This document shows, one piece after another, positions 3,530 through 54,890 of a stretch of DNA of 64,000 nucleotides (the first letter of the stretch is position 1; every line of letters starts with the position of its first letter). Source of the stretch: an uncultured Clostridia bacterium (GTDB taxonomy: Bacteria; Bacillota; Clostridia; TANB77; CAG-508). The notes below the pieces were generated by a model. It saw nothing but the letters and a program-made list of their open reading frames with translations. It searched no databases and had not been told where the DNA came from. A program made the translations under genes and the position numbers. The stretch lies in the NCBI GenBank assembly GCA_947624195.1, contig CANQJH010000001.1, forward strand, positions 49,233-113,232, written 5' to 3'.

Positions 3530-4903
3530 ATGCTAGTACATAAGCTAGCATTGATTAGAAAAATGAACAAGATATTAATTGCAAATCGTGGAGAAATCGC
3601 AGTTCGTATAATTAGAGCCTGCAAAGAAATGAATATAAAAACAGTTGCAGTTTGTTCAGAAGTGGATAAAGATGCAATGCATACAAGACTTGCAGATGAA
3701 GCGGTTTGCATAGGACCTGCAGAATCAAGTAAGAGTTATCTAAATATAAAAAATATAATAGAAGCGGCATACATTACAGGAGCAGACACTATACATCCAG
3801 GGTTTGGCTTTTTGTCAGAAAACGCACAATTTGCAAAAAATTGTGAAGAATCAAATATCAAATTTATTGGTCCATCATCAAAAGTAATAGAACTTTTAGG
3901 AAATAAATCAAATGCAAAAGAAATATTGAAAAAAGCTGACATCCCAGTAATACCAGGCTCAGATGGAAGTATAAAAGGACTAAAAGAAGCAGAGAAGATA
4001 GCAGACAAAATCGGTTATCCAGTAATGTTAAAAGCAGCAGCAGGTGGTGGAGGAAAAGGAATAAGAATAGTCCATAGTAAAGAAGAGTTAGAAAACAATT
4101 ATAACATAGTAAAACAAGAAGCAAAAATTTCATTTAACGACGACGAGATTTACATTGAGAAATTTATAGAAAATCCAAGACATATTGAAATACAAATCTT
4201 AGCTGACGAATACGGAAATGTAATTCATTTAGGAGAAAGAGACTGTTCAATTCAAAGAAGACACCAAAAAATTATTGAGGAAACTCCATCAACAATTGTA
4301 GACGACAAATTAAGAAATAAAATGGGAGAAACAGCAATAAAGGTAGCAAAAACTTTTGGATATACAAATTGTGGAACTGTAGAATTTCTGGTAGATAAGA
4401 ATAAAAATTTTTACTTTATGGAAATGAATACAAGAATTCAAGTAGAACATCCAATCACGGAAATGCGTACAGGATTGGATATAGTAAAAGAACAAATTAA
4501 AATTTCAGCAGGTGAAAAATTAAAATTCAAACAAAAAGAAATAGAATTTAGAGGTCACGCAATTGAGTGCAGAATAAATGCAGAAAATGCAAACAATAAT
4601 TTTATGCCCTGCCCAGGAAAAATACAAGGACTAAATTTACCTGGAGGAAATGGCATAAGAGTAGATACAGCGGTTTATGAGGGCTATACAATTCCACCAA
4701 ACTATGATTCTATGATAGCAAAAATTATAGCATATGGAAATAATAGAAATGAAGCAATAAGCAAAATGAAAAGAGCATTGGAAGAATTAGTAATTGACGG
4801 AATTGAAACAAATGCAGACTTTTTATTTAAAATTATAAAAAGCCCTAATTATATAAGAGGAGATTTTGACACATCTTTTATAGAAAAAAACGGTGTAAAA
4901 TAA
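3530..4903 (+). CDS. accC: acetyl-CoA carboxylase biotin carboxylase subunit
   Basis: ATP-grasp with KILIANRGEIAVRI and glycine-rich loop; true start may be the internal Met at 3563. Confidence 0.9.
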   Translation: MLVHKLALIRKMNKILIANRGEIAVRIIRACKEMNIKTVAVCSEVDKDAMHTRLADEAVCIGPAESSKSYLNIKNIIEAAYITGADTIHPGFGFLSENAQFAKNCEESNIKFIGPSSKVIELLGNKSNAKEILKKADIPVIPGSDGSIKGLKEAEKIADKIGYPVMLKAAAGGGGKGIRIVHSKEELENNYNIVKQEAKISFNDDEIYIEKFIENPRHIEIQILADEYGNVIHLGERDCSIQRRHQKIIEETPSTIVDDKLRNKMGETAIKVAKTFGYTNCGTVEFLVDKNKNFYFMEMNTRIQVEHPITEMRTGLDIVKEQIKISAGEKLKFKQKEIEFRGHAIECRINAENANNNFMPCPGKIQGLNLPGGNGIRVDTAVYEGYTIPPNYDSMIAKIIAYGNNRNEAISKMKRALEELVIDGIETNADFLFKIIKSPNYIRGDFDTSFIEKNGVK

Positions 4904-5039: not shown

Positions 5040-5882
5040 ATGATTGTAGACAAGATTAAAAAGAGAGAGCCATCAGCCAAAAATAAAAAAGCGAATATTG
5101 ATATACCAGTTGGCAAATGGATAAAATGCGAAAAATGCAACGAGATAATATATAAAGACACCATAAAAGAAAATTTGAGTATATGTCCAAATTGCGGACA
5201 TTACTTTAGAATGCACATTAATAAAAGGCTAGAAACAATTATAGATGATGGCACATATAAAAGATTTGATTTTGATATAGAAACAACCAATCCACTAAAA
5301 TTAGAAGACTATCCTAAAAAATTAGAAACTTTAAGAGAAAAAACAAGTTTAAAAGAAGCAGTTGCGTGTGGAACAGGTAAAATCAATGGTCAAGAAGTAG
5401 TCATATGTATAATGGACAGCGGATTTTTAATGGGAAGTATGGGAATTGTAGTTGGAGAAAAAATTACGTATAGTATAGAACAAGCAATCAAATTAAAACT
5501 ACCACTTATTATTTTTTCCGTATCAGGCGGAGCAAGGATGCAAGAAGGTATAATATCATTAATGCAAATGGCAAAGACAACAGCAGCACTTACTAAGCTA
5601 GATGAAGCAGGGCTACTATATATATCAGTTTTAACAGACCCAACTTATGGAGGAGTAACTGCATCATTTGCAAGTTTAGGAGATATAATCTTAGCCGAGC
5701 CAGGTGCTATGATAGGATTTGCAGGACAAAGAGTAATTGAACAAACAATTGGCGAAAAATTACCAGAGGGATTTCAAACAGCAGAATTTTTGCTAGAACA
5801 TGGTTTTATAGACAAGATAGTTGAAAGAAAAGATTTAAAAGACACTCTTTATAAATTAATACTTTTGAATAGCAAAAGTTAA
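5040..5882 (+). CDS. accD: acetyl-CoA carboxylase carboxyltransferase beta subunit
   Basis: N-terminal Cys4 zinc ribbon (CEKCNEI...CPNCGH) followed by a carboxyltransferase domain. Confidence 0.9.
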
Positions 5883-6014
5883 GAAACAAAGATTTAATTG
5901 ATAATTAGCAAATTTAATTAACCTTAAATGTTAGAACTGAGTAAGAGGCTATTTATAAGCTTATAACAGGAGAGAACTAGAATAAATTAATTAAAGGAGG
6001 AGTGATAAATAAAA

Positions 6015-6824
6015 ATGAAAACAACAGCATGGGAAAAAGTCGAAATAGCTAGAAATACTAAAAGAAAAACGGCACTGGACTATATAGATGAAATATTTGA
6101 CGAATTCATAGAATTGCATGGAGATAGAAATTTTAAAGACGATAAAGCAATAGTATGTGGACTTGCAAGGATAGGAAAACAAAATTTCACAATTATAGCA
6201 GAGCAAAAAGGCAGAACAACTAAGGAAAATATTGAAAGAAATTTTGGTATGCCAAATCCAGAAAGTTATAGAAAAGCAATAAGGTTTATGAAACAAGCAG
6301 AAAAATTTAATAGACCAGTAATAACATTTATTGACACAAAAGGAGCTTATCCAGGAATTGGAGCAGAAGAAAGAGGACAAGGAGAAGCAATTGCAAAATC
6401 AATGTTTGAAATGGCTAAATTAAAGGCCCCAACAATAGCAATCGTAATAGGAGAAGGCTCAAGTGGAGGAGCTTTAGCAATTGGAGTAGCAAATAAAGTA
6501 TTAATGCTAGAAAATGCAATCTATTCTATATTATCGCCAGAGGGATTTAGCAGTATTTTGTGGAAAGACTCATCAAGATACAAAGAAGCTGCAGAAAAAA
6601 TGAGATTAACAGCAAAAGATTTAAAGGATTTAAAAGTAATAGATAAAATAATAAAAGAGCCAAGCGGAGATGTAGAGGAAAGCTTTAAAGCAGTATCAGA
6701 AAGCCTAAAAAAAGAAATAAAAACAAGCATTTCTAAACTAAAAGAAAAATCAGAGCAAGAAATCGTAGAAGATAGATATACAAAGTTTAGAAACATGGGA
6801 GAATTCGAGGTTATAAACGGATAA
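6015..6824 (+). CDS. accA: acetyl-CoA carboxylase carboxyltransferase alpha subunit
   Basis: Carboxyltransferase alpha motifs (FIDTKGAYPG, GEGSSGGALAIG); lies directly downstream of accD. Confidence 0.9.
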   Translation: MKTTAWEKVEIARNTKRKTALDYIDEIFDEFIELHGDRNFKDDKAIVCGLARIGKQNFTIIAEQKGRTTKENIERNFGMPNPESYRKAIRFMKQAEKFNRPVITFIDTKGAYPGIGAEERGQGEAIAKSMFEMAKLKAPTIAIVIGEGSSGGALAIGVANKVLMLENAIYSILSPEGFSSILWKDSSRYKEAAEKMRLTAKDLKDLKVIDKIIKEPSGDVEESFKAVSESLKKEIKTSISKLKEKSEQEIVEDRYTKFRNMGEFEVING

Positions 6825-7739: not shown

Positions 7740-7840
7740 ACCGTGGTAAGAGTGATGTGAGGAACATTGATAGATTTCCAGAATATTATTTTGAAAAAAT
7801 CTATAAGAAGTGGAAAGCTGATAGAATTTAAAAATAAACT
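7740..7840 (+). repeat. diverged copy of the 3' end of the 144-aa gene at 11297..11731
   Basis: About 95 bp homologous to 11635..11731, including the near-identical run encoding KKS(I/V)RSGKLIEFKNK. Confidence 0.6.
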
Positions 7841-7900: not shown

Positions 7901-8033
7901 TTTATATACGTATTTTATACTAAAAAATAAACAAAATCAAGATATAAAAAAATTTTTTTATATAAATAAAATTTAAAATATAAAAAGTTCGCAAAGTGTT
8001 GATTTTAAAAGCTAATCTCCGAAAAATAAATTA

Positions 8034-8056
8034 TCATTAAGTACATTACTTAATGA
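8034..8056 (+). promoter_or_regulatory. perfect inverted repeat (10-bp arms, 3-bp spacer) 27 nt upstream of the start codon
   Basis: tcattaagta-cat-tacttaatga; the same arms recur at 9731..9753 upstream of the paralog. Confidence 0.5.
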
Positions 8057-8082
8057 TAAAAATTTGAGAGGAGCAAAAGATA

Positions 8083-9399
8083 ATGAAAAACAAAGGAATA
8101 ACACTAGTTGCGCTAGTAGTAACAATAGTAATTATGTTAATTTTGGCAGGGGTAACATTGAGATTAGCTTTAGGGGAAAATGGATTGTTTAATATATCAA
8201 AACAATCAGTTGAAAAGTATGAGGAATCAGTCCAAAACGAAGAAGAAGAATTAGATGAATTACTAGAAGAATTAAAGCATATAATGCCAGAAGAGGCAGG
8301 AAAAGAGGTAGAAGTACCAAAAGCAGAGAAAGATAAGTGGGATTTAACAAAAGTAACACCAACAGCAGACGGAAAAGGAAATACAATACCAGTACCAAAA
8401 AATTTTTATTATGTAGGAGGAGATAAAGACTCAGGATTTGTAATATCAAGTGTAAGTGGAGATGATCTAAACAATAGTAAAAAAGGTAATGAATTTGTAT
8501 GGGTACCAGTAAAAGTTATAAATGATATGGTAATGTGTAAGGAACATACAACAGCTACAATTACTTTTGATGGAGTAAATTTTTCTTGTGATGGAAATGG
8601 ACACCCACATACACCGAACAAAGAATACTTGGTAGGACAACTTTATACTCCGACTACGGATAATGGATTTACTGCAGGAATACCATATACAGAATATAAT
8701 GAAAACATAATAAGGGAACCAGGATTGACAACAGTGGATACAGATGAAAATTTATCTAATTTTTTACAGACTACATCAAATGAATTTTTACAGGAGTTAC
8801 AAGAAGAATTTTATAAAATGGCAAAAAGTGTAGCAAAATATGGAGGATTTTATATAGGCAGATATGAAACATCAGGTTTAAATGACGGCGAGGAACCAAA
8901 AGTACAATCGGGACTAGTACCAACGGGAAACATTAACTGGTATACAATCTACAAAAATAGTAAAAAAATAGCCCAAGAAGGTTCAAATGTAACAAGTAGT
9001 ATGATATGGGGAAGTCAATGGGACTATGTACTAAATTGGATGCAAGACATAGAAAATCCAACATTGACAGAAGAAAAGAAATATTACATTATGGACAGTA
9101 GAGGAATGGGTTGGTATTATGGAGAAACAGGAAACAATGAGCATAAAACAGGAATAGATTTGATAAAGGACGGAAAAGTAACCAATAAAGAAAAAAATAT
9201 TTATGATTTTGCAGGAAATTTTGAGGAATTAAATATGGCTTGCTCGGGCGGTACAGTACGTGCTTTACGTGGAGGATCTTATAAGCTGGAGGGAAATGTT
9301 CGTCCTGCTTGTAACCTTCGACTGGTAAGACCTGACGCTATATATGAGTGGGTTAGTAGTCGAGTTACACTTTGTATAAACTTGAATCCGGGGGAGTAA
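8083..9399 (+). CDS. pilin-like-anchored surface protein with a C-terminal FGE-sulfatase/C-type-lectin-like domain; candidate DGR target 1
   Basis: N-terminus KGITLVALVVTIVIMLILAGV resembles a type IV prepilin signal but lacks F+1 and E+5; a coiled-coil stalk follows. The C-terminal motifs IYDFAGNFEE, RGGSY and RLVR match the FGE-sulfatase fold. The 3' end is GC-rich and A-depleted. Confidence 0.8.
   Translation: MKNKGITLVALVVTIVIMLILAGVTLRLALGENGLFNISKQSVEKYEESVQNEEEELDELLEELKHIMPEEAGKEVEVPKAEKDKWDLTKVTPTADGKGNTIPVPKNFYYVGGDKDSGFVISSVSGDDLNNSKKGNEFVWVPVKVINDMVMCKEHTTATITFDGVNFSCDGNGHPHTPNKEYLVGQLYTPTTDNGFTAGIPYTEYNENIIREPGLTTVDTDENLSNFLQTTSNEFLQELQEEFYKMAKSVAKYGGFYIGRYETSGLNDGEEPKVQSGLVPTGNINWYTIYKNSKKIAQEGSNVTSSMIWGSQWDYVLNWMQDIENPTLTEEKKYYIMDSRGMGWYYGETGNNEHKTGIDLIKDGKVTNKEKNIYDFAGNFEELNMACSGGTVRALRGGSYKLEGNVRPACNLRLVRPDAIYEWVSSRVTLCINLNPGE
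9235..9396 (+). other. putative DGR variable-region-like patch in target 1
   Basis: Local GC far above the window background, depleted in A, with rare codons (TCG, GGC, CGT, CGA); coincides with the last beta-strands of the lectin-like fold. Confidence 0.45.
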
Positions 9400-9566: not shown

Positions 9567-9783
9567 AATTGTCGTTAAGTAATATACTTGACGATATATT
9601 CATATATGTATTTTATACTAAAAAATAAACAAAATCAACACTTTATATAATTTTCTTTTTGAAATAAAATTGAAAATATAAAAAATCTGTAAAGTGTTGA
9701 TCCTCAAGACTAATCTCCACAAATAAATTATCATTAAGTATATTACTTAATGATAAAAATAAAAAATTGGAGAGGTGCGGAAG
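9567..9783 (+). repeat. duplicated 5' regulatory region (copy 2), including the operator-like palindrome at 9731..9753
   Basis: Homologous to 7870..8082; contains tcattaagta-tat-tacttaatga. Confidence 0.7.
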
Positions 9784-11076
9784 ATGATGAAAAACAAAGG
9801 AATAACACTAGTTGCTTTAGTAGTAACAATAATAATTATGTTAATTTTAGCAGGGGTGACATTAAATATTGCTTTAGGTGATAACGGATTAATAAAGCAA
9901 ACAAAAAAAGCAGCGGATTTAGCAAAAGAGTCTATGAAAAATGAGGAAGAAGATGTAGGAAAACTAGTTAATCAATTAGATGAAGTAATAAAAGAAAGTT
10001 TACCAAGTACAGTAAAAGAAGCAATAGAAACAGAAGAAATATTTACAGTTAATAAGAAAATAACGGATGAAAGTGGAAAAACAATGGTAGTACCAAAAGG
10101 CTTTAAAGTAATAGAAGAAACTAATATAGATAGTGGCGTAGTCATAGCAGACGGAGAAGGTAATGAGTTTGTATGGGTACCATGTGAAGATGGTGAATAT
10201 AAAAAACATGTATATGATGTAAAACAAATAGATGATGCTACTACTACTTTAGCTGATGGAGTAAACAAAGAAAAAGGTTGGACTACATTACAGTATAGAA
10301 AATATAGTGATTGGAAAGATGAAGTAGATGAAGTGGCAAATATAAAAAGTGTGGAAGATAATAAAGGATTTTATATAGCGAGATATGAAGCGGGTGTACC
10401 CAAGAATGCAGATTTTTATGTAGAGGCTTCTGCTGAAGGAGTTAAAAATAAAAATTATCCACAAAGTAAAAATGATATAAGTGATAATATAAAGCCAGTA
10501 AGTAAAAAAGGAGTGCAAACATGGAATTTAATAAGTCAAATAAATGCTAAAACCGTATCCGAAAGAATGTATAGCGGAGAATCTTACGGAGTAAGAAGTC
10601 AACTAGTAGATGGAACTGCATGGGACACTGCCGTAACATGGATGTCAAAAGAGTACGTAGGAATAGAAAAAAATAGTACAAATTATGGAAATTATAATAA
10701 CACACCTACAAAAGAAATAACAGGCTTATATGCAGCACATACTTATAGTGATGGTTGGCAATTAGCAACAAGTTATGGTTATGGAAAAAAAAGTATAGGT
10801 GGAAGAAGTAGTTTGAGAACTGAAATAGCGACAGGCTTAGTAAATGAGTTTAAACTAAAAAACATATATGATATGGCTGGAAATATGTATGAATGGACTA
10901 CAGAATATGGATATCATGATGGTGGAACCAGCAGTACAAAATATGTTGTTCAGCGAGGAGGATGTCCTACTGACGATGGTGGTGTCCACCCAGTTTCTGT
11001 TCGTAGTGGCTATTGGGCAGAAACGGTAGAAAATAATCCTGTATTTGGTTTTCGAGTTGTACTTTATGTAAAATAA
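9784..11076 (+). CDS. pilin-like-anchored protein with a C-terminal FGE-sulfatase-like domain; candidate DGR target 2, paralog of target 1
   Basis: Same N-terminal KNKGITLVALVVTIIIMLILAGV anchor and stalk. C-terminus carries IYDMAGNMYEWT, QRGGC and GFRVV. The ORF track starts at a GTG at 9775; the ATG at 9784 has a better RBS. Confidence 0.8.
   Translation: MMKNKGITLVALVVTIIIMLILAGVTLNIALGDNGLIKQTKKAADLAKESMKNEEEDVGKLVNQLDEVIKESLPSTVKEAIETEEIFTVNKKITDESGKTMVVPKGFKVIEETNIDSGVVIADGEGNEFVWVPCEDGEYKKHVYDVKQIDDATTTLADGVNKEKGWTTLQYRKYSDWKDEVDEVANIKSVEDNKGFYIARYEAGVPKNADFYVEASAEGVKNKNYPQSKNDISDNIKPVSKKGVQTWNLISQINAKTVSERMYSGESYGVRSQLVDGTAWDTAVTWMSKEYVGIEKNSTNYGNYNNTPTKEITGLYAAHTYSDGWQLATSYGYGKKSIGGRSSLRTEIATGLVNEFKLKNIYDMAGNMYEWTTEYGYHDGGTSSTKYVVQRGGCPTDDGGVHPVSVRSGYWAETVENNPVFGFRVVLYVK
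10920..11073 (+). other. possible variable-region-like 3' segment of target 2 (weaker composition signal)
   Basis: Moderately GC-enriched relative to the gene body; homologous in position to the patch in target 1 but with a codon indel relative to it. Confidence 0.3.
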
Positions 11077-11296: not shown

Positions 11297-11731
11297 TTGG
11301 AGAAATTAAACTTAGCAACAATAAATAAGGCTCATAGTAAAAACATAAAAATAGGTGAATTAAATGAGCAAGTTATAGAATTATTAAAATTAGATTTAAA
11401 ACCACAGAATATTAATATTTGGTCATCCAGATTAAAAGAACATTGTGAAAAACACAAAGATGAATACTCTAGTGTAAATGCATATAATCAAGCAATAAGA
11501 TTTATTCCGGAGATAATTAAAAATCCAGATTATGTTGGATTACATAGAAATGGTAATATTCAGTATGTAAAAAAGTTAGAAGACATATCTTTAGTCGGAA
11601 TACAAATTTTAAAAGGTAGTGGGCACTTATTATTTAGAACAATTTTCCCAATTTCAGAAACAAAGTTGAAAAAATCTGTAAGAAGTGGAAAGCTAATAGA
11701 ATTTAAAAATAAACAAAGAGAAAATACATAA
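11297..11731 (+). CDS. hypothetical protein, 144 aa
   Basis: Intact ORF whose 3' end is duplicated at 7740..7840; no family recognised with confidence. Confidence 0.5.
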   Translation: MEKLNLATINKAHSKNIKIGELNEQVIELLKLDLKPQNINIWSSRLKEHCEKHKDEYSSVNAYNQAIRFIPEIIKNPDYVGLHRNGNIQYVKKLEDISLVGIQILKGSGHLLFRTIFPISETKLKKSVRSGKLIEFKNKQRENT

Positions 11732-12148
11732 AGTATTTCCTCTTTTTAATTTTGGTTAATAGGTAGGACGGCGTACCCTACATCTACTTATAAGACCATC
11801 TCTGGCGTGATAGCTGCCACTTTCTATCCTCAATTAACCTACTATGAGTGTACTCATAATTTTAAAAATTATGCATTACCTATATGTAAATATATTACAA
11901 AAATCTCAATAAGTCAATAGGTTTTAATTATTTTTTACAATTGTTGAACTAATTATAACTATATTTTAACATATTATTATAATTATGTCAACGGCTAAGA
12001 TATAGAATTTTTTCGTTTGTGCCTTTTTTTACTTTTTAATTGTAAAAAAATTTACATACTTTATTTTAATATTCGCCTCACTTTAAATTATTTTTTGTTT
12101 TTTTGCTCCTTTCTATATTTTACCAGTACAAGATGACACAATCTCCCT

Positions 12149-12571
12149 GTGATAACTTTACATAATTTTTATGACTTTTTTATGCAACTAAACTCCTTAT
12201 ATTTTTTTCCTTATTTTTTATATGTCCTTTTGCCATTGTTAACATCACTACAAACGTTAAACTTAGCATTAAATTCATTTTCTTCAATCCTCGTATGGGA
12301 AAATAATTGGGATAATATTCAACCATTTTTCAAATATGGACCACAGACAAGAAAAATAATGTATACAACAAATGCGATTGAGAGTCTAAATAATTGTTAT
12401 AAAAGATTAAATAAAGGAAGACGAGTATTTCCAACGATTCAAGCACTAGAAAAAAGCATGTATTTATCAACTCAAATGATTATTGAAAAATGGACTAGCA
12501 GATATGCGAACTGGGGCGTAACATTGGCAGAATTAAATATTTATTTTCCAGATAGGGTAAATATAGATTAA
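12149..12571 (+). pseudogene. IS256-family transposase, C-terminal fragment only
   Basis: Residues IMYTTNAIESLNNCYKRLNKGRRVFPT...KWTSRYANWGVTLAELNIYFPDRV match the conserved C-terminus of IS256/mutator-type transposases. The catalytic N-terminal two-thirds are absent and the upstream part of the ORF is nonsense. Confidence 0.75.
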
Positions 12572-20388: not shown

Positions 20389-20598
20389 AAAAATTATTAT
20401 TAATTATATAGTTTAATAATAAATTTTTTCACTTAAAGTATATGGTATTAAAATATTTTTGTCAATACTATGTTGATAAAAATTTTTTTATTTTTTTCAT
20501 CAAAATAATTCAAAAAGCCTGATATAACTGTGAAACAAGTATTTTTAAATTATTATTAAACTATATATTTAATAATAAATAAAAAATAGGAGGAAACC
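20389..20598 (+). repeat. 5' regulatory region of target gene 3, duplicated (about 95% identity) upstream of target gene 4
   Basis: Near-identical to 24787..24994 down to the RBS (ataggaggaaaccatg). Confidence 0.8.
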
Positions 20599-21807
20599 AT
20601 GGAAAAACAAAAGAAACAAGGAATTTTGAACATTAAAAACAGTAAAGGTATAACGTTAGTAGCATTAGTAATAACCATAATAATAATGCTAATATTAGCA
20701 GGGGTGGCATTAAGACTAGCATTAGGAGAAAATGGTTTATTTAAAATGTCAGAGAAAGCAGTAGAGAAGTATAAAGAGGAAGCAGCAAAGGAAGAAAATA
20801 CACTAGGGAATATGGAAAAACAACTAAAGTACATGATAGAGGGCTATGTGCCAGACAGAAGTATGCTAAAAGTAGGAGATGAAGTAAATTATACGCCCCA
20901 AACGGCAAAAACGACATATACTTTAGAAGGTAACAAAAGTGGATACGGAGACTATACAAGTAGTAAACCTAAAACAATGACAAAAGCAACAGACCAAGAA
21001 ATAAGTCAAGAGAATTATACATGGAAGATAATGGACATAAATAGTAAAACAGGAGAAGTAAAAATAATGGGCGTACCAACAAGTAGTATGCCTACAGTAT
21101 ATTTCAAAGGAGCATTAGGATATAACAATGGAGTATATCTTTTGGATGATATATGTAAAACATTATATAGTAATAGTGACTTGGGAGTAACAGCAAGAAG
21201 TATAGATATAGAAGATATTGAAAGTAAAATGAATGACAAAGGAAGAGATGCAAAAAATGATTATATATCAGAAAATCAAACAACCAAAGAATTTAACGGA
21301 AGTAATGCATATTACCCTAACATATATAAATATCAACAAGATTCAAATATAGATGGAACAGAAAAGACAGAAGGAATAAGTGAAAGTGATGATGGAACAA
21401 AAACAGAAGCAGGAATACCAATTGAGCATGCAACAAATGTAGAAGGATATACACAAGCAGAAACAAGTATCACAGTAAAAGGAACATACTATTATGCAAC
21501 GCAAAATGCAGGATATTTTGATGATGAAGACTTTTACAATTTAATGTTTAAAACAGGTACATATTATTGGCTTGCTTCGCGTTATTCTGGTTGCTTCTCG
21601 AGTAGCTCTTGTGCTGACTTTGGGCTTCGCATTGTGGCCAGCTCTAGCATCAACGGTTACAAAATGTTCAATTCGGATGGCGATTACGACGACGACAATA
21701 TTCGCGTTTGCCCGGTAGTTTCTCTAGGGGCTAATATCCAAATCACAAGAGATGGAAACGCAGGAGCATGGGACTTATCGAAGGACCCAAATTTTGGTGG
21801 ATTTTAA
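20599..21807 (+). CDS. pilin-like-anchored protein with a C-terminal DUF1566/Fib_succ-major-like (C-type-lectin superfamily) domain; candidate DGR target 3
   Basis: N-terminus KGITLVALVITIIIMLILAGV plus an ALGENGLFKMSEKAVEKYKEE stalk shared with the other three targets. The C-terminus has YYW...NIRVCPVVSL resembling the YWSS...VRCVR motif of DUF1566. Confidence 0.75.
   Translation: MEKQKKQGILNIKNSKGITLVALVITIIIMLILAGVALRLALGENGLFKMSEKAVEKYKEEAAKEENTLGNMEKQLKYMIEGYVPDRSMLKVGDEVNYTPQTAKTTYTLEGNKSGYGDYTSSKPKTMTKATDQEISQENYTWKIMDINSKTGEVKIMGVPTSSMPTVYFKGALGYNNGVYLLDDICKTLYSNSDLGVTARSIDIEDIESKMNDKGRDAKNDYISENQTTKEFNGSNAYYPNIYKYQQDSNIDGTEKTEGISESDDGTKTEAGIPIEHATNVEGYTQAETSITVKGTYYYATQNAGYFDDEDFYNLMFKTGTYYWLASRYSGCFSSSSCADFGLRIVASSSINGYKMFNSDGDYDDDNIRVCPVVSLGANIQITRDGNAGAWDLSKDPNFGGF
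21561..21735 (+). other. putative DGR variable-region-like patch in target 3 (strongest composition signal)
   Basis: The first ~90 nt contain roughly 10% A by hand count, against roughly 35-40% A in flanking coding sequence. Dense TGC/TCG/CGC/GGC codons; the composition falls back to normal about 80 nt before the stop. Confidence 0.5.
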
Positions 21808-24786: not shown

Positions 24787-24994
24787 AAAATTATTATTAA
24801 TTATATAGATTAATAATAAATTTTTTCACTTAAAGTATATGGTATTAAAATATTTTTGTCAATACTATGTTGATAAAAATTTTTTTATTTTTTTCATCAA
24901 AATAATTCAAAAAGCCTGATATAACTGTGAAACAAGTATTTTTAAATTATTATTAAACTATATATTTAATAATAAATAAAAATAGGAGGAAACC
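24787..24994 (+). repeat. duplicated 5' regulatory region (copy 2) upstream of target gene 4
   Basis: See 20389..20598. Confidence 0.8.
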
Positions 24995-25981
24995 ATGAAA
25001 AAACAAAAGAAAGAAAACAAGTTCAACTTAAAAGAACAAGGTATAACGCTAGTTGCGTTAGTAGTAACAATAATAATACTTTTAATCTTAGCAGGAGTAA
25101 CAATCAACATAGCTTTAAGGGAAAATGGATTATTTAAAATGTCAGAGAAAGTAGTAGAGAAGTATAAGGAAGAAGCAGGAAAGGAAGAGGAAACATTACA
25201 GGATTTAGAACAACACATAAAAAATAATACACCCGTTGAACCAGCAGAAGAACCTAAAGAGCCTATAGGAAAAACACCGTATGTAGGATATTATGCAAGT
25301 AGAGATGGAATAACAGTAGATGGAATAATATATGCAGACCAAGCAGTAGGAAATACAAACGGAACAAAATGGAGTGATGGTGATGGAACCTACACAATAC
25401 CAATAAAAGAAGAAGGCTTAAAGGAATACTATATAAGTCAAGAATCATACACAACAGAAGCCTTTGGACCAAAACCTGTGTTAACACCAATAAATGATGA
25501 AGGAGAAGACAGATTTTATATCATGTCACTTGAAGATTTTGGAGGAAAAGGACAAAGTTATTATTGGTATTATAGCGCATTTAAAAATATGAGTGATTAT
25601 AGTACAGCAACATCAACAAAATTTGGAACTGGAAAAACCAATACAGAGAACATGGTAGCAAAGTGGACGGCGGGAGAAAGTGAAGATGGTTATGGAAAGC
25701 AAGATGGGGGAAGCACATATAAAGATATATGGGGATACTTTTCAAGAAAAGAAATACCAGAAGGATGGTTTTTACCATCAAGAGGAGAATTAGCAGCATT
25801 TATGCAAGAATTAGGGATAAACAGCAGTAATTATTCTAATCAATTTCAATTATCTAGTTATTACTGGTCGTCGTCGCAGTTCAATTTTAACTACGCATGG
25901 CTCGCGTACATGCTTATTGGTTGTATGAGCAGCTACACTGTGAATTACGGCCGCTGCGTGCGCCTGAGTGCGACTTTCTGA
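24995..25981 (+). CDS. pilin-like-anchored protein with a C-terminal DUF1566-like domain; candidate DGR target 4, immediately upstream of the RT
   Basis: N-terminus QGITLVALVVTIIILLILAGV and a conserved stalk. The C-terminus SSYYWSSSQFNFNYAWLAYMLIGCMSSYTVNYGRCVRLSATF fits the YWSS...AW...R.VRCVR signature. Confidence 0.75.
   Translation: MKKQKKENKFNLKEQGITLVALVVTIIILLILAGVTINIALRENGLFKMSEKVVEKYKEEAGKEEETLQDLEQHIKNNTPVEPAEEPKEPIGKTPYVGYYASRDGITVDGIIYADQAVGNTNGTKWSDGDGTYTIPIKEEGLKEYYISQESYTTEAFGPKPVLTPINDEGEDRFYIMSLEDFGGKGQSYYWYYSAFKNMSDYSTATSTKFGTGKTNTENMVAKWTAGESEDGYGKQDGGSTYKDIWGYFSRKEIPEGWFLPSRGELAAFMQELGINSSNYSNQFQLSSYYWSSSQFNFNYAWLAYMLIGCMSSYTVNYGRCVRLSATF
25855..25978 (+). other. putative DGR variable-region-like patch at the extreme 3' end of target 4
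   Basis: Roughly 18% A by hand count over ~120 nt. Contains TCG-TCG-TCG, GCG, CGC, GGC and CTG codons that are rare elsewhere in this AT-rich genome. Confidence 0.5.
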
Positions 25982-26178: not shown

Positions 26179-27321
26179 GTGTATATGGATAATAAGCTAA
26201 CTTTTGAAGATTTATATGAAGCATATAATTTATGTTTAAAAAATAAAAAAAATAAAATAGGAACATATAATTTTGTAAACTATAATTTATGCAAAAATTT
26301 AATGGAGCTACTAGAAGAATTAAATAATAAACAATACATTCAAAGACAATCTAATTGTTATGTAGTTAAGGATCCAGCATTGAGAGAAATATATGCAGCT
26401 CAATTTTTTGACAGAGTAGTACAGCATTTTTATATGAAAGAAGTAGAACATATTTTAGAAGAACAATTAGTTGACGGTTGTTGTTCATGTAGAAAAAATA
26501 AAGGTAATGATTATGCTCTTCAATTATTAAAGAAATATCTTAAAGTAGTATCGAATAATGGGAAAAAAGACTGTTACTTTCTTAAAATTGATTTATCTGG
26601 ATATTTTATGTCAATAGATAGAAAGCAAATAAGTCAAAAGTTCTTAAATCTTATAAGCAATAAATATAAAGGACCATATAAAGAATTACTCATTTATTTA
26701 ACTCCAATTATATTTGAAAATAATCCGGCAGTGAACTGTAAGTATAAATGTAATGAAAAAGTAAGAAACCTAGTACCTGAAAGAAGAAAAATGAATCCGA
26801 AATCCGATTATGGAATGGCTATAGGTAATTTGACTTCTCAGGCAGGTAGCAATTTTAATCTCAGTGAATTTGATAATTACGTTGTATATAAACTAAATCT
26901 AGTTAATTATATTAGATATGTTGACGATATGGTGATAATTTCAAATAATAAACAAGAGTTACAAAATGCAATGCCGTATATAATAAATAAACTTAAAGAA
27001 ACTAATCAATCTATAAGTGAAAAGAAAACTAAAATAGATACTGCGTATCATGGAGTACCATTTTTGGGAAAAGTTTCTTTTCCATACGGTTATCAAAAAG
27101 CTAAAAAATCGACAATAGTGAGAGTATATAAAAGGGGTAGAGAAATTAGATATAAGGACACAGACAATTTATTAGCAAAAACAAATTCGCAAATTGGATT
27201 GCTAAAAGGATATAACTGCAGAAAACTAATATTAAATTATTCTAAAATTATACAAAACAAAACGGGAGACGAAATTTATTTGAATGAAGAAATGTTAAAA
27301 TTTTGTAAAAAGAATAAATAA
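26179..27321 (+). CDS. diversity-generating retroelement reverse transcriptase
   Basis: RT motifs ALREIYAAQFFDRVVQH (motifs 1/2), LKIDLSGYFMSIDRK (motif 3), AIGNLTSQ (the DGR-specific GxxxSQ motif 4) and YVDDMVII (motif 5). The likely start is the ATG at 26185 with an aagagg RBS; the track begins at a GTG at 26179. Confidence 0.85.
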   Translation: MYMDNKLTFEDLYEAYNLCLKNKKNKIGTYNFVNYNLCKNLMELLEELNNKQYIQRQSNCYVVKDPALREIYAAQFFDRVVQHFYMKEVEHILEEQLVDGCCSCRKNKGNDYALQLLKKYLKVVSNNGKKDCYFLKIDLSGYFMSIDRKQISQKFLNLISNKYKGPYKELLIYLTPIIFENNPAVNCKYKCNEKVRNLVPERRKMNPKSDYGMAIGNLTSQAGSNFNLSEFDNYVVYKLNLVNYIRYVDDMVIISNNKQELQNAMPYIINKLKETNQSISEKKTKIDTAYHGVPFLGKVSFPYGYQKAKKSTIVRVYKRGREIRYKDTDNLLAKTNSQIGLLKGYNCRKLILNYSKIIQNKTGDEIYLNEEMLKFCKKNK

Positions 27322-27411: not shown

Positions 27412-28338
27412 ATGTATGATGATTATTTTAAAAATATAATTGGTGGAAGTATAAAGTCTCCAGAATACTATGTTTCTACATATGATAACCATACTTATCA
27501 GCCTAGACAAGTAAGTGCTCTTCCAGGATACAATTATTCTGCCGATACAAATTTTAATGACAATGACATTGAAGATTTATATCCAGATATTTATAAAATT
27601 GTATCCCCAATGGTAGATAAACTTTTAGACGGAAAAACTTTTGATAATGTAAATGAAGACATGTTGGTAAAATGGACTGTGGAAATCTATGATGCTCTTG
27701 AAGTTGATGATGATAATACCAAATTAGTAAATGATAATGTTGCTAAAACTGGCAGTAGTGTTATTTCTAATGGTACTAGTAGATCAAATGTAAATCAAGG
27801 AGTTGCAGGTAATAGTAGCAATAATACTATAAGACCTGGCTCTAACTATGAAAGTGAAACTACTAGCGCAAGGACTGCACAGAGAACGGTGCTATCTAAT
27901 ACAGTTGCAAATACACCTTCTAATACTATGACTAAAGCGGGAATAACTACACCTTCTTCTACAATAAGTAGTACAGCGGTCAATACATCATCTAATTCGA
28001 TAACTAATACAGGAGTAAGCGCATCACCTAATACAGTAAATAATGCAACAGTCAATGCAATATCTAATTCTACAACAAATAAAGAACCAAAAGTGGTTGA
28101 TGTAGTAAGTAGATATAGAAATTATAAAAATCCGCTTCTAAGGGATTTAATAAGAATATTGATTTTAAATAAATTATATGGAAATCGTAGACCGCCAAGA
28201 GGTATGCCAAGACCTTATCAAGACTTTGAACCAACATTTATTCCTATGCCAGATTATAGTAGTGTAAACACAGAAGTTTATAAACCTTATACTAATTATT
28301 CTAAAGCTTACTTAGACACACCTTATCCAGAAGAATAA
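27412..28338 (+). CDS. hypothetical protein with an S/T/N-rich low-complexity core and a Pro/Tyr-rich C-terminus
   Basis: The RBS is embedded in a hairpin (cctcactacat...atgtaggagg). The middle third is repetitive SNT/ANT; possibly a spore-coat-like structural protein. Confidence 0.45.
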   Translation: MYDDYFKNIIGGSIKSPEYYVSTYDNHTYQPRQVSALPGYNYSADTNFNDNDIEDLYPDIYKIVSPMVDKLLDGKTFDNVNEDMLVKWTVEIYDALEVDDDNTKLVNDNVAKTGSSVISNGTSRSNVNQGVAGNSSNNTIRPGSNYESETTSARTAQRTVLSNTVANTPSNTMTKAGITTPSSTISSTAVNTSSNSITNTGVSASPNTVNNATVNAISNSTTNKEPKVVDVVSRYRNYKNPLLRDLIRILILNKLYGNRRPPRGMPRPYQDFEPTFIPMPDYSSVNTEVYKPYTNYSKAYLDTPYPEE

Positions 28339-52424: not shown

Positions 52425-53615
52425 TTACTCCTCACCATTTACTAATCTTAACGTATCTCTAGCAATAACTAATTCTTCATTTGTTGGAATAACCCATACT
52501 TGTATTTTAGAATCATCGGTGGAAATTTTGATTTCTTCACCTTTTACAGAGTTTCTTTGATTATCAATTTTTACTCCCATATATTCTAAGTATTTGCAAA
52601 TATCTGCTCTAATGCCTACCTGGTTTTCTCCTACTCCAGCAGTAAATGTGATAACGTCAACTCCTTGCATAGCCATAGCATATTTTGCTATAAATCCAGC
52701 AACCGAGTATTTGTATTGTTTTAATGCTAAAATAGCTCTTTCATTTCCTTCTTGTGCAGCTGCTTCAATATCTCTTACATCCCTAGAAACTCCACTTATT
52801 CCATATAAGCCAGATTCTTGGTTTAGTATATTGTCCATTTCCTTTGATGTTAGATTTTCTTTTTCCATTAAAAAGGTTACGACTGAAGGATCTAAATCAC
52901 CTGAACGAGCACACATTGGTATACCAGCCACTGGGCTTAGTCCCATAGATGTTTCTACAGATTTTCCATTTTGAATTGCACAAATGCTTGCACCTTGTCC
53001 TAGATGGCAGTTAATTACTTTTAAATCTTTTCTATTTAAAATCTCTGATATTCTATTTGAAACATAATAATGTGAAGTTCCGTGAAATCCATATTTTCTT
53101 ATTTTGTATTGATCTTTATATTTATATGGAATTGGATAGGTATATCTTTCTTCAGGGATAGTCTGGTGGAAAGCTGTATCAAATACGGCAACCATAGGCT
53201 TTCCTGGCATAATTTCTTGACATGCTCTAATTCCTATAATAGCACAAGGATTATGTACTGGTGCTAGGCTTGAAATATCATCAATTGATTTTATAACATC
53301 TTCATTAATTAATACAGAACCTTTGAAAGTACTTCCTCCATGAACTATTCTGTGACCAATTGCGTTAATTTCATTTACATTAGATATAGACGGATATTCT
53401 TTGTTTAATAATTGTTCTATAACAAAATCTAATGCTTCCTTATGATTATTTACAGGATGTTCTAAAACATATTTTTCTCCGTTAATTTTATGTGTTAAAA
53501 AAGATTTCTCTCCTATTCTTTCATAGGTGCCTTTTGAAATTACCTCTTCATTTTCCATATTTATTAATTGATATTTTAAAGAAGAGCTTCCGCAATTTAT
53601 AACTAAAATTTTCAT
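52425..53615 (-). CDS. ackA: acetate kinase
   Basis: MKILVINCGSSSLKYQL N-terminus and conserved ASKHA-fold motifs. Confidence 0.9.
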   Translation of the reverse strand: MKILVINCGSSSLKYQLINMENEEVISKGTYERIGEKSFLTHKINGEKYVLEHPVNNHKEALDFVIEQLLNKEYPSISNVNEINAIGHRIVHGGSTFKGSVLINEDVIKSIDDISSLAPVHNPCAIIGIRACQEIMPGKPMVAVFDTAFHQTIPEERYTYPIPYKYKDQYKIRKYGFHGTSHYYVSNRISEILNRKDLKVINCHLGQGASICAIQNGKSVETSMGLSPVAGIPMCARSGDLDPSVVTFLMEKENLTSKEMDNILNQESGLYGISGVSRDVRDIEAAAQEGNERAILALKQYKYSVAGFIAKYAMAMQGVDVITFTAGVGENQVGIRADICKYLEYMGVKIDNQRNSVKGEEIKISTDDSKIQVWVIPTNEELVIARDTLRLVNGEE

Positions 53616-53696: not shown

Positions 53697-54890
53697 TTAT
53701 GAGCATAGATGTTTTGTTTCATATGCAATAGCAAGTTCCTCATTTGTTGGTACAACATATACATGCACTTTTGAATCATCAGCTGAAATTTTGGCTTCAA
53801 CTGCAAAAGCATCTTTATTTGCTTTGCTATCTAGTTTAACACCCATAAATGATAGGTAGTTACAAATAGCTTCTCTTGACTGAGGGCCCCTCTCTCCTAC
53901 TCCGGCAGTAAATGATATAACATCTACACCGTTCATTGCCACAGCACATCTAGCTATATAACATGCAATTAGATAATGGTAATTATCAAGAGCAAGCTGT
54001 GCCATTTCATTTCCTTCGGATTGAGCTTTTTCAATATCTCTATTGTCAGACGAAACACCTGAAATACCATATAAGCCAGATTTTTTGTTTAATATTGTTT
54101 CCATTTGTTCTGGAGTTAAATTTTCTTTTCTCATAATATATGTAACAACTGATGGATCTAAATCTCCTGAACGAGAACCCATTGGAATACCTGCAACAGG
54201 AGTAAGTCCCATTGATGTTTCAACTGATTTTCCATTTTGTATAGCGCAAATGCTTGCACCCTGTCCAATATGGCAGTTTATAATTTTTAAGTCTTCAACT
54301 GGTTTTCCCTCAATTTCTGCCACTCTTTTTGAAACATACATATGTGATGTGCCATGGAAACCATATTTTCTTATTCCATATTTTTCATAATATTCATATG
54401 GAATTGGATAAATAAATCTTTCTTTAGGTATTGTTTGATGAAATGCTGTATCAAAAACAACTACATTAGGCTTACCTGGAATGTCGCGTTCGCAAGCTTC
54501 TATTACCATAGCAGCTGCTGCATTATGTAGTGGAGCTAATTCAGCACATCTCTTTATTTCTGCTAAAACACTGTCATCTACTAAAACAGATTTGTTAAAT
54601 TTTTCTCCTCCATGTACTATTCTATGACCAATGCTGTCGATTTCATCTAGTGATTTAATTACTCCATATTCACTATGTAATAATTGGCCTAAAACAAATT
54701 TTAATGCTTGTTCATGATTTTGAACTGGATTCTCAATTTTTATTTTTTCTCCATTTACCTTATGTGTTACAAATGAATTGTCACTTCCTATCCTTTCGTA
54801 ATTTCCTGATGCAAGGGTATTTGCAGTATCCATATCTATTAATTGATATTTCAATGATGAACTTCCTGCATTTAAAACTAAAATTTTCAT
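53697..54890 (-). CDS. acetate kinase paralog
   Basis: MKILVLNAGSSSLKYQLIDM; full-length paralog directly upstream of ackA, with an acetate-kinase-type rather than butyrate-kinase-type N-terminus. Confidence 0.85.
   Translation of the reverse strand: MKILVLNAGSSSLKYQLIDMDTANTLASGNYERIGSDNSFVTHKVNGEKIKIENPVQNHEQALKFVLGQLLHSEYGVIKSLDEIDSIGHRIVHGGEKFNKSVLVDDSVLAEIKRCAELAPLHNAAAAMVIEACERDIPGKPNVVVFDTAFHQTIPKERFIYPIPYEYYEKYGIRKYGFHGTSHMYVSKRVAEIEGKPVEDLKIINCHIGQGASICAIQNGKSVETSMGLTPVAGIPMGSRSGDLDPSVVTYIMRKENLTPEQMETILNKKSGLYGISGVSSDNRDIEKAQSEGNEMAQLALDNYHYLIACYIARCAVAMNGVDVISFTAGVGERGPQSREAICNYLSFMGVKLDSKANKDAFAVEAKISADDSKVHVYVVPTNEELAIAYETKHLCS

What the first reader, a model, noticed from the sequence alone, without database searches (positions are those of the whole stretch)
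8083..8180. Conserved pilin-like N-terminus lacking Phe+1 and Glu+5 on all four family members
K(N)KGITLVALVVTI(V/I)IMLILAGV follows the KGFTLVELLVVIAIIGILA pattern of clostridial type IV pilins. However it has Ile in place of Phe+1 and Ala in place of the Glu+5 needed for pilus assembly. The segment is nearly identical in all four genes and is followed by an acidic coiled coil. It may therefore be an uncleaved signal-anchor, or a PilD-processed but non-polymerising stalk, that presents the lectin-fold tip at the cell or spore surface. Pilin-class anchors on DGR target proteins are not a commonly described architecture.
Basis: partly seen in the sequence, partly recalled or inferred. Interest (0 to 1): 0.7.

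Follow-up and report, generated by a model that had tools for sequence, protein, structure and literature searches.

The report
Glu5-less pilin module on clostridial adhesins
The conserved N-terminus on these four surface proteins is a complete small type IV pilin module, of a variant that standard pilin predictors miss, and related gut Clostridia use the same module as the likely main subunit of a pilus machine, so these proteins are probably adhesins carried on pili.

Summary
Four paralogs (8083, 9784, 20599 and 24995, all + strand) share a basic leader ending in Gly, then ITLVALV(V/I)TI…LILAGV, a G/R-E/D-N-G break and an acidic helix.

This is a family trait. In 252 family sequences Gly-1 is invariant, and Ile+1 and Ala+5 each occur in 248. 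The 60-residue module matches 21,220 protein clusters at E≤1e-10, almost all from uncultured gut Clostridia.

In five related MAGs a protein with the same N-terminus (75-80 aa in four, 153 aa in one) sits at the pilin position of a type IV pilus operon with pilB, pilT, pilC and a pilD-like gene. The window proteins align to that pilin over its whole length.

I therefore read the four genes as modular type IV pilins. They carry an FGE/C-type-lectin-fold or DUF1566-like binding module on a pilin module whose putative major pilin also lacks Phe1 and Glu5. The inference "no Glu5, so non-polymerising" does not hold.

Cleavage and assembly are inferred. No pilus genes lie in the window or in the 10 kb read on each side.

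The DGR link is weak here. A DGR-type reverse transcriptase follows gene 4, but no template repeat exists. A relative (L078) does carry a complete DGR.

The parts
8083..8097 (+). t1 leader peptide MKNKG, ending in the invariant Gly-1. This is the predicted prepilin-peptidase cleavage site.
   Evidence: Gly-1 is present in 252/252 family sequences and Lys at -2 in 157/252.
8098..8172 (+). t1 hydrophobic helix at +1..+25 (ITLVALVVTIVIMLILAGVTLRLAL), the counterpart of pilin alpha1-N, with Ile+1 and Ala+5.
   Evidence: The AlphaFold2 model has a helix at residues 6-30. Pfam N_methyl aligns residues 2-25 at 16.9 bits, below the 21.2 cut-off. Family logo.
8173..8184 (+). Conserved G-E-N-G helix break at +26..+29.
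   Evidence: Family counts are Gly+26 211/252, Asn+28 214/252 and Gly+29 244/252. The break lies at residues 31-34 of the t1 model and at residues 33-36 of the short-pilin model.
8185..8283 (+). Second helix, acidic, residues 35-67. It is homologous to the C-terminal helix of the 75-80 aa operon pilin.
   Evidence: Ala+34, Ala+37 and Glu+48 are conserved both in modular members and in short pilins.
8290..9399 (+). t1 globular C-terminal module with the FGE-sulfatase / C-type-lectin fold seen in DGR variable proteins.
   Evidence: pLDDT is mostly above 90. Foldseek best matches are TvpA 2y3c, FGE and TaqVP. Several homologs carry PF03781.
9784..11076 (+). t2, a paralog. Pilin module 9784-9987, then an FGE-like C-terminus.
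20599..21807 (+). t3, a paralog with a 17-residue leader. Pilin module 20599-20835. The C-terminus is DUF1566-like by eye, with no Pfam hit. GC-rich, A-poor stretch at 21540-21780.
24995..25981 (+). t4, a paralog with a 16-residue leader. Pilin module 24995-25228. Lcl_C/DUF1566-like C-terminus. The last ~120 nt (25860-25979) have GC 0.50 and are A-poor, so they look like a variable repeat.
   Evidence: The sequence is identical in 4 contigs.
26179..27321 (+). DGR-class reverse transcriptase directly downstream of t4. No template repeat or Avd gene was found.
   Evidence: Pfam RVT_1 at 5e-15. The best PDB sequence match is the 328-aa 'Reverse transcriptase' chain 8ub7_A at 6.6e-18; I take this to be Bordetella phage bRT, from memory. 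IGNLTSQ and YVDD motifs are read. No template repeat.
8031..8059 (.). Perfect 13-bp-arm palindrome about 25 nt before the t1 start codon. Equivalents lie at 9728-9756 (t2), 20550-20578 (t3) and 24947-24975 (t4).
   Evidence: Similar palindromes precede family genes in L003, L005, L013, L017, L018 and L022.

Best explanation
**What it is.** The first ~65 residues of each of the four proteins are a complete, lineage-specific type IV pilin module. It consists of:
- a basic leader ending in Gly;
- a 21-26-residue uncharged helix beginning Ile-Thr-Leu with Ala at +5;
- a G-E/D-N-G break;
- a second helix.

In related gut Clostridia the same module, on its own, is a 75-80 aa all-helical protein. It is encoded at the pilin position of a type IVa-like pilus operon (pilM-like, two membrane proteins, pilin, pilD-like, two minor pilins, pilB, pilT, pilC).

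**What the four genes are.** They are modular pilins. A binding module (FGE/C-type-lectin fold in t1 and t2, DUF1566/Lcl_C-like in t4 and probably t3) is joined to the pilin module by an acidic or Pro-rich linker.

**Likely mechanism (inferred).**
1. The protein inserts into the membrane with the leader in the cytoplasm.
2. An A24 prepilin peptidase cuts after Gly.
3. The pilin module lets the protein enter, or prime at the tip of, filaments built from the short pilin. The binding module is thereby displayed away from the cell.

**Shown versus inferred.** Shown: sequence and operon homology, the fold of t1, and the size of the family. Inferred: cleavage, co-assembly, adhesin function, and the presence of the pilus operon in this particular genome.
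For: **The motif is a family-wide, specific signal**
- Gly-1 252/252, Ile+1 248, Thr+2 252, Leu+3 252, Ala+5 248, Thr+9 251.
- Leader length varies from 3 to 57 residues and is Lys-rich.

**The family is very large**
- The 60-residue profile finds 31,835 50%-identity clusters at E<=1e-3 and 21,220 at E<=1e-10.
- At least 422 loci occur in GTDB species representatives, nearly all uncultured Clostridia from animal guts.

**Link to pilus operons**
- In L023, L029, L036, L037 and L062 a protein with this N-terminus lies between membrane components and a pilD-like gene. Two pilin-like genes, pilB, pilT and pilC follow.
- Pfam supports the assignments: A24_N_bact 7e-32, T2SSE 3e-102 plus MshEN, T2SSE 6e-41, T2SSF 4e-25. 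The L029 pilin passes the N_methyl cut-off, 22.4 against 21.2 bits.
- NCBIfam best matches are type IV-A PilB at 6e-120 and the PilT family at 1.5e-91.
- The same operon recurs in L082-L084.

**Homology of the window proteins to the operon pilin**
- t1-t4 align to those pilins over 53-74 residues at about 40-60% identity. That is nearly the whole length of the 75-80 aa pilins.
- The second-helix positions Ala+34, Ala+37 and Glu+48 are conserved in both the short pilins and the modular proteins. This points to a shared packing constraint.

**Other support**
- Solved type IV pilins are the best PDB sequence matches, aligned in register.
- One MAG (CAUWGE01) holds both the operon (L037) and an array of five modular members (L079).
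- C-terminal modules across the family are adhesin-like: BspA-type LRR, GLUG, FGE, Big_2, DUF285, M26 N-terminal and pectate-lyase-like.
- This matches the published modular-pilin concept (PMC8179133).
- Canonical Peptidase_A24 genes lie about 0.8 kb downstream of family members in L038 and L039.
Against: - No pilus or peptidase gene lies in the 64-kb window or in the 10 kb read on each side. The machinery is not shown for this genome.
- The four window proteins score below the Pfam N_methyl cut-off and do not hit NCBIfam's prepilin model.
- Glu+5 is absent. It forms the subunit-subunit salt bridge in the bacterial type 4 filament structures described in the review read here (PMC10191384). No precedent for a Glu5-less bacterial major pilin was found.
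- That the 75-80 aa protein is the major pilin rests on operon position only.
- The operon-encoded PilD homologs lack a recognisable Peptidase_A24 domain and the second catalytic Asp motif.
- The canonical peptidase was seen in different MAGs from the operons, so processing is uncertain.
- Only 5 of 79 fetched loci contain the operon.
Confidence: 0.6

Rival explanations
1. The proteins use a pilin-derived membrane anchor only. The N-terminus, cleaved or not, keeps the protein in the cytoplasmic membrane as a type II anchor. The acidic helix and linker act as a stalk through the wall. The proteins never enter a filament.
For: - The genes are scattered among housekeeping genes, not in pilus operons.
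- Glu+5 is absent.
- The modular proteins have no beta-sheet pilin head, only helix-break-helix followed by a linker.
- The operon PilD homolog looks degenerate as a peptidase.
Against: - A plain anchor does not need an invariant Gly-1/Thr+2/Leu+3, nor conservation of the second, extramembrane helix at the same positions as the operon pilin.
- The operon's own candidate major subunit has the identical module.
- Published modular pilins are also encoded as single genes and are still incorporated into pili (PMC8179133).
Confidence: 0.22
2. It is an ordinary Sec signal peptide. Signal peptidase I cuts after the conserved small residues just before E/D-N-G (for example A-L-G|E in t1) and releases a soluble secreted protein.
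For: The residues before the break fit the -3/-1 rule (A-L-G in t1, V-L-G in the family consensus). There is a basic n-region and a hydrophobic core.
Against: - The n- and h-regions are almost invariant across more than 20,000 clusters, which is unlike Sec signal peptides.
- The alignment to solved pilins and to Pfam N_methyl is in register.
- A 75-80 aa protein in a pilus operon would be reduced to a peptide of about 44 residues.
- The uncharged stretch is 21-26 residues long.
- No predictor could be run, so this is argued, not tested.
Confidence: 0.05
3. It is a sorting or interaction signal for another, undescribed membrane system, or a relic module with no current assembly role. The pilin resemblance would then reflect ancestry only.
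For: - Most members have no Pfam or NCBIfam assignment.
- The operon components pilM-like, the two membrane proteins and one minor pilin match no known family.
- The peptidase arrangement is atypical.
Against: Strong purifying selection acts on the whole module. The module is physically linked to pilB, pilT, pilC and a pilD-like gene in five independent MAGs plus three metagenome contigs.
Confidence: 0.08

Closest known systems
Modular type IV pilins, e.g. Streptococcus sanguinis PilB (vWA module) and PilC (lectin module) (Raynaud et al. 2021, PMC8179133)
   Same: An N-terminal pilin module carries a bulky ligand-binding module through a short linker. The organism is a monoderm. The modules are adhesin-type and several architectures exist per family.
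   Different: - The pilin module here is only helix-break-helix, with no beta-sheet head.
- It has Ile+1 and Ala+5 in place of the canonical Phe/Met+1 and Glu+5.
- Most members fall below the IPR012902/PF07963 threshold used to census modular pilins.
- The family is far larger: 21,220 clusters against about 1,200 proteins in that census.
Glu5-less tip minor pilins (GspK / PilX-PilK class)
   Same: They are pilin-class N-termini without Glu+5. They are thought to cap the filament, where no salt-bridge partner is needed (PMC10191384).
   Different: In those systems only the capping subunit lacks Glu5 and the major pilin keeps it. Here the candidate major pilin and nearly the whole family lack it. 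One operon minor pilin keeps Asp+5.
DGR variable proteins with a C-type-lectin/FGE fold (TvpA, TaqVP, Mtd)
   Same: The C-terminal domain of t1 matches them best by fold. A relative, L078, has a genuine TR/VR pair, an Avd-like gene and a reverse transcriptase.
   Different: From memory, TvpA is a lipoprotein and Mtd is a phage tail-fibre protein; neither has a pilin N-terminus. In this window no template repeat exists, so current diversification is not supported.
Short all-helical pilins (Geobacter PilA-N, Tad/Flp pilins)
   Same: The operon pilin is about 70 residues when mature and is predicted to be entirely helical. Geobacter pilin is a weak PDB sequence match, E 2.5.
   Different: From memory, those pilins keep Glu+5 (Flp also Tyr+6), and Flp pilins are assembled by Tad machinery. 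The operon here has PilB, PilT and PilC of type IVa kind.
DGR-diversified adhesive tips of Bacteroides type V pili (bioRxiv 10.1101/2024.11.15.621889)
   Same: A gut commensal places hypervariable binding domains on pilus subunits (abstract).
   Different: That is a different pilus class (type V, which by my recollection is assembled by strand exchange) in a different phylum. Here the DGR link is occasional: 2 of 80 loci.

Membership tests
Type IV pilin (class III signal peptide) | Short hydrophilic or basic leader ending in Gly or Ala at -1 | tested here: met
   The leaders are MKNKG, MMKNKG, a 17-mer and a 16-mer, each with 2-6 Lys/Arg. Gly-1 is 252/252 in the family. The criterion comes from PMC10191384.
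Type IV pilin (class III signal peptide) | A 20-25-residue hydrophobic stretch directly after the cleavage site that forms a helix | tested here: met
   The uncharged runs are 21-26 residues. Predicted helix at residues 6-30.
Type IV pilin (class III signal peptide) | Glu (or Asp) at +5 | tested here: not met
   Ala is at +5 in all four genes and in 248/252 family sequences. The review says Glu5 is present 'often, but not always'. PilFind requires [DE] at +5 (PMC3244431).
Type IV pilin (class III signal peptide) | Curated sequence model (Pfam PF07963 N_methyl / NCBIfam prepilin N-terminal model) at its threshold | tested here: not met
   The window proteins score 15.0-16.9 bits against a cut-off of 21.2, aligned in register. 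There is no NCBIfam hit. The operon pilin of L029 does pass, at 22.4 bits.
Type IV pilin (class III signal peptide) | Genetic association with pilB/pilC/pilD machinery | tested here: inconclusive
   This is met for the family: short members lie in operons in L023, L029, L036, L037, L062 and L082-84. It is not met for the four window genes. No such genes lie in the window or within 10 kb on either side.
Type IV pilin (class III signal peptide) | Leader cleaved by an A24 prepilin peptidase, and the protein polymerised into a filament | not testable with these tools
   This needs biochemistry. Canonical PF01478 peptidases exist in related MAGs. The operon PilD homologs lack PF01478.
Modular pilin (Raynaud et al. 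2021) | A pilin module fused through a linker to a functional domain that is not specific to pilus biology | tested here: met
   t1 has helix-break-helix, then a low-confidence linker, then an FGE/C-type-lectin-fold domain. Other members carry LRR_5, Glug, Big_2, DUF285 and M26_N.
DGR variable (target) protein | A variable repeat at the 3' end matched by a template repeat that differs mainly at template adenines | tested here: not met
   There is no such pair for any of the four genes on either strand of the 64-kb window. The same script finds TR 4483-4625 and VR 4195-4337 in L078, with 22 of 24 mismatches at template adenines.
DGR variable (target) protein | Adjacent DGR-class reverse transcriptase, with or without Avd | tested here: inconclusive
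   A reverse transcriptase lies 197 nt after t4. It hits RVT_1, and its best PDB match is the chain 8ub7_A, labelled 'Reverse transcriptase', at 6.6e-18. No Avd-like ORF was seen. t1-t3 lie 4.4-18 kb away from the reverse transcriptase.
DGR variable (target) protein | C-type-lectin / FGE-type fold holding the variable residues | tested here: met
   For t1, TvpA, FGE and TaqVP are the best fold matches. t2 gives a weak PF03781 hit and t4 a weak Lcl_C hit.
Sec (SPase I) signal peptide | A short h-region and an A-x-A-type site, with no conservation of the n- and h-regions | tested here: inconclusive
   A -3/-1-compatible site (A-L-G|E) exists. Against this, the h-region is 21-26 residues and almost invariant across the family. 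No predictor was available.

The most novel reading that the evidence does not exclude
Uncultured gut Clostridia may possess an undescribed lineage of bacterial type IV filaments with three unusual properties:
- The major subunit is an all-helical pilin of about 70 residues without Phe1 or Glu5.
- Prepilin processing is split between a peptidase-only A24 enzyme and an operon-encoded protein that keeps the methylase domain but has lost the GxGD motif.
- The pilin module serves as a universal carrier for tens of thousands of interchangeable adhesin modules, a few of them hypermutated by DGRs.

The four window genes would be members of this display system.
Probability: 0.35. Interest if true: 0.8.

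Novelty: new variant of a known kind. Interest (0 to 1): 0.6.

Why it matters
- **Hidden surface proteins.** If the reading is right, a very large set of surface proteins in abundant but uncultured gut Clostridia are pilus-borne adhesins. Standard tools miss them. PilFind requires an acidic +5 and a length under 350 aa, and Pfam N_methyl mostly scores below threshold.
- **A test case for pilus assembly.** It offers a natural test of whether a bacterial type IV filament can assemble without the Glu5-to-N-terminus salt bridge.
- **Prepilin peptidase.** It raises the question of whether cleavage and methylation can be carried out by separate proteins.
- **DGR biology.** At least one member of this pilin family is a genuine DGR target (L078). 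This would extend the idea of hypervariable pilus adhesins from Bacteroides type V pili to a type IV system.

Tried and rejected
- **Template-repeat search.** I used ungapped scans, blastn with word size 7, and adenine-tolerant diagonal scoring on both strands. Nothing matched any of the four C-termini. The method is validated on L078.
- **Phage and plasmid collections.** tblastn of the 60-residue N-terminus found no match. The low-complexity filter may mask the hydrophobic segment, so this carries little weight.
- **Contig extension.** Reading 10 kb beyond each end of the window found no pilus or peptidase genes.
- **Same-genome test.** I could not reach the rest of this genome.
- **Short-pilin model.** Foldseek against the PDB gave no matches.
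- **PilD-like profile.** Searching it against PDB sequences returned only zinc-finger noise.
- **Literature.** Searches for the motif string, and for DGR together with prepilin or type IV, found no description of this family.
- **Population variation.** The cluster look-up for t1-t4 found only singletons, each identical in 3-4 contigs. There is no sign of variable-repeat variation.
- **Canonical Glu5 pilins.** None were found in the 79 fetched loci or the window.
- **Caveat.** Treat it as a lead. The independent support is the absence of PF01478.
Full report
**1. The observation**

Window 8083-8180 encodes MKNKG ITLVALVVTIVIMLILAGVTLRLALGE, the start of a 438-aa ORF (8083-9399, + strand). Three other + strand ORFs open the same way:
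- t2: 9784/9787-11076
- t3: 20599-21807
- t4: 24995-25981

Over +1..+25 after the Gly they match t1 at 20-22 of 25 positions. Whole-protein identity is 26-38%. All four have Ile at +1 and Ala at +5. After the Gly comes an uncharged run of 21-26 residues, then a G/R-E/D-N-G motif and a net-acidic helix.

Pfam N_methyl aligns in register to all four but below its cut-off (15.0-16.9 bits against 21.2). NCBIfam's prepilin model does not hit.

The t1 AlphaFold2 model (pLDDT 86.8) has a helix at 6-30, a break at 31-34, a low-confidence helix at 35-67 and a confident globular domain at 70-438. That domain's best PDB fold matches are the DGR variable protein TvpA, formylglycine-generating enzymes and TaqVP.

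**2. The motif belongs to a very large family**

- t1 has more than 4,700 database relatives. Most cover its full length and open with ...G ITL(I/V)ALVVTI....
- A 60-residue profile of the N-terminus finds 31,835 clusters (50% identity) at E<=1e-3 and 21,220 at E<=1e-10.
- In 252 sequences: Gly-1 252, Ile+1 248, Thr+2 252, Leu+3 252, Ala+5 248, Thr+9 251, Gly+26 211, Asn+28 214, Gly+29 244. Ala+34, Ala+37 and Glu+48 are also conserved.
- The Lys-rich leader varies from 3 to 57 residues.
- In GTDB species representatives at least 422 loci encode it. Nearly all are uncultured Clostridia MAGs from rabbit, chicken and human guts, often with several loci or tandem arrays per MAG.
- C-terminal modules in 60 diverse members include BspA-type LRR, GLUG, FGE-sulfatase, Big_2, DUF285, M26 N-terminal and pectate-lyase-like domains. 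These are typical adhesin parts.

**3. The decisive context**

In L023, L029, L036 and L037 a 75-80 aa protein consists of this N-terminal module and little else. An example is MFKKERG ITLVALVVTIVILLILAGVTISMTVSNNGLFGRAKNA... It sits inside a conserved operon with this gene order:
1. a pilM-like gene of about 550 aa
2. two single-pass membrane proteins
3. this protein
4. a pilD-like gene
5. two pilin-like genes
6. pilB
7. pilT
8. pilC

L062 has the same layout with a 153-aa version, plus a 267-aa member directly after pilC.

Family models support these assignments:
- Pfam: A24_N_bact 7e-32, T2SSE 3e-102 with MshEN, T2SSE 6e-41, T2SSF 4e-25. The L029 pilin passes the N_methyl cut-off at 22.4 bits.
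- NCBIfam: best matches are type IV-A PilB (6e-120), the PilT family (1.5e-91) and GspF/PilC.

The short pilin is itself a family of hundreds of clusters of very uniform length with a 7-residue leader. One member occurs in 296 collection blocks, always in the same operon. It is predicted to be helix 2-32, break 33-36, helix 37-72. Its profile's best PDB sequence matches are true type IV pilins aligned Gly-1 to Gly-1: MshA at E 0.0024 and S. sanguinis PilE1 at E 0.093.

t1-t4 align to these pilins over 53-74 residues at roughly 40-60% identity. The same second-helix positions are conserved in both groups. One MAG (CAUWGE01) carries both the operon (L037) and an array of five modular members (L079).

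**4. Interpretation**

The four window genes are best read as modular type IV pilins in the sense of Raynaud et al. (PMC8179133). A pilin module carries a ligand-binding module.

The absence of Phe1 and Glu5 is the rule of this pilus lineage, including its candidate major subunit. It therefore cannot be used to argue that the proteins do not polymerise. The review literature notes that Glu5 is present 'often, but not always' and that the tip-capping subunit lacks it (PMC10191384).

I did not find a described bacterial system whose major pilin lacks Glu5. This is the unusual point.

PilFind requires [DE] at +5 and a length under 350 aa (PMC3244431). It would miss the family.

Not shown for this genome: cleavage after Gly, co-assembly with the short pilin, adhesin function, and the presence of the operon.

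**5. The peptidase question**

Three lines of evidence bear on processing.

- **The operon PilD homolog looks degenerate as a peptidase.**
  - It keeps the N-terminal Cys4 (methylase-type) domain and the first catalytic Asp context (GID, 97% conserved).
  - None of 120 close homologs, nor the five locus proteins, has a Peptidase_A24 (PF01478) hit, even at E<=10.
  - At the position aligned to the second catalytic Asp the clade has N69/S23/D19/G6/E2 of 120. A nearby Glu (FTYE) is 98% conserved.
- **A canonical peptidase exists in related MAGs.**
  - L038 and L039 encode a peptidase-only A24 protein: PF01478 at 7e-18 and 5e-19, a GFGDVKL motif and no methylase domain.
  - Each lies about 0.8 kb downstream of a modular member, beside pepP-efp.
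  - The MAG that supplied L039 also supplied L070. Its prfB and rho products are 68-70% identical to the window's.
- **Conclusion.** A prepilin peptidase is plausibly present in this clade, possibly as a split arrangement. The two genes were not seen together in one MAG here. The window's own genome could not be searched.

**6. The DGR claim**

The ORF at 26179-27321 is a DGR-class reverse transcriptase. It hits RVT_1, carries IGNLTSQ and YVDD motifs, and its best PDB sequence match is 8ub7_A at 6.6e-18.

The last ~120 nt of t4 have GC 0.50 and are A-poor. However:
- No template repeat matches any of the four C-termini anywhere in the window.
- No Avd-like ORF is present.
- t4 is identical in four assemblies.

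This looks like a decayed or incomplete DGR.

The family can be a genuine DGR target. L078 has TR 4483-4625 and VR 4195-4337, with 22 of 24 mismatches at template adenines. It also has an Avd-like ORF and a reverse transcriptase, and the target is a 607-aa member of this family. Even so, only 2 of 80 loci examined have a reverse transcriptase nearby.

**7. Rivals**

- **Membrane anchor only.** This cannot be excluded. It fits poorly with the invariant cleavage-site residues and with the extramembrane helix being conserved in common with the operon pilin.
- **Sec/SPase I signal.** A site at A-L-G|E fits the -3/-1 rule. The reading is hard to reconcile with the near-invariance of the n- and h-regions, the in-register pilin homology and the operon context. 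No predictor was available.

**8. Novelty and score**

Automated annotation already calls a few members 'type II secretion system protein' or 'pseudopilin PulG'. The modular-pilin concept is published. I found no paper describing this family, its Glu5-less pilin or the atypical peptidase.

I rate it a new variant of a known kind, with interest 0.6. The reading that the four genes are modular pilins gets confidence 0.6. The wider claim of a new filament lineage gets probability 0.35.

Noticed in passing
window 26179-27321 (reverse transcriptase) and 25860-25979 (end of t4): A DGR-class reverse transcriptase has no detectable template repeat or Avd gene anywhere in the 64 kb. The adjacent t4 C-terminus is GC-rich and A-poor like a variable repeat, but is identical in four assemblies. 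This looks like a decayed or incomplete DGR.
   Followed up: yes
window 8031-8059, 9728-9756, 20550-20578, 24947-24975 (also 20394-20422 and 24794-24819): Perfect 11-13-bp-arm AT-rich palindromes (TTATCATTAAGTA-N3-TACTTAATGATAA and TTATTATTAAAC...) lie about 20-30 nt upstream of each of the four start codons. Related palindromes (TTTTTATTAAGT...ACTTAATAAAAA) precede family genes in L003, L005, L013, L017, L018 and L022. Stems of 10 or more occur in 17 of 90 genes against 6 of 400 background windows. This may be an operator or a 5'-UTR hairpin.
   Followed up: partly
window 20390-20585 and 24787-24982: The 196-nt upstream regions of t3 and t4 are 99% identical, while the coding N-termini that follow are only about 80% identical. 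This suggests recent conversion or selection on the promoter/leader region.
   Followed up: no
L029 10325-11122, L037 10323-11126, L036 10378-11172, L023 10288-11100, L062 3525-4304: The operon-encoded PilD homologs keep the A24 N-terminal Cys4 domain but have no Pfam Peptidase_A24 hit, even at E<=10. They appear to lack the GxGD second catalytic Asp, and a Glu in FTYE is conserved instead. All 120 closest database homologs carry PF06750 only.
   Followed up: partly
L039 12219-12968 and L038 6176-6922: A canonical peptidase-only A24 protein (PF01478, GFGDVKL motif, no methylase domain) is encoded about 0.8 kb downstream of modular family members, next to pepP-efp. Together with the item above this suggests a split prepilin peptidase/methylase. 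The two were not seen in the same MAG here.
   Followed up: partly
L078 2520-6182: This is a complete DGR whose target is a 607-aa member of the same pilin-module family. VR is 4195-4337 and TR 4483-4625, with 24 mismatches of which 22 are at template adenines. An Avd-like ORF and a reverse transcriptase (5157-6182) are present.
   Followed up: yes
window 7791-7839 and 11666-11714; 11297-11731; 11755-11838; 12149-12571: A 49-nt direct repeat (96% identical) duplicates the 3' end of a PBECR3 nuclease-domain gene upstream of t1, so the t1-t2-PBECR3 block is bracketed by repeats. Just downstream lie a skipping-rope RNA (RF02924, minus strand) and a Mutator-family transposase fragment.
   Followed up: partly
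L029 11119-11526 and equivalents in L036 and L037: Within the pilus operon one minor pilin-like protein (G|MAGIDL...) keeps an acidic residue (Asp) at +5. The candidate major pilin and the other minor pilin do not. This is the reverse of the usual pattern.
   Followed up: no
window 27412-28338: A 308-aa ORF directly after the reverse transcriptase has a long Asn/Ser/Thr-rich low-complexity centre with an internal ~105-nt repeat. It has no Pfam or NCBIfam match.
   Followed up: no
L067 and L045 compared with window 12871-38895: Family members occupy similar chromosomal slots (after uvrA, around murD/ytvI/secA) in MAGs whose UvrA, UvrB and SecA are 75-79% identical to the window's. The genes are therefore stable chromosomal residents, not recent mobile insertions.
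   Followed up: partly
window 52425-53615 and 53697-54890: Two full-length acetate kinase paralogs lie in tandem upstream of pta.
   Followed up: no
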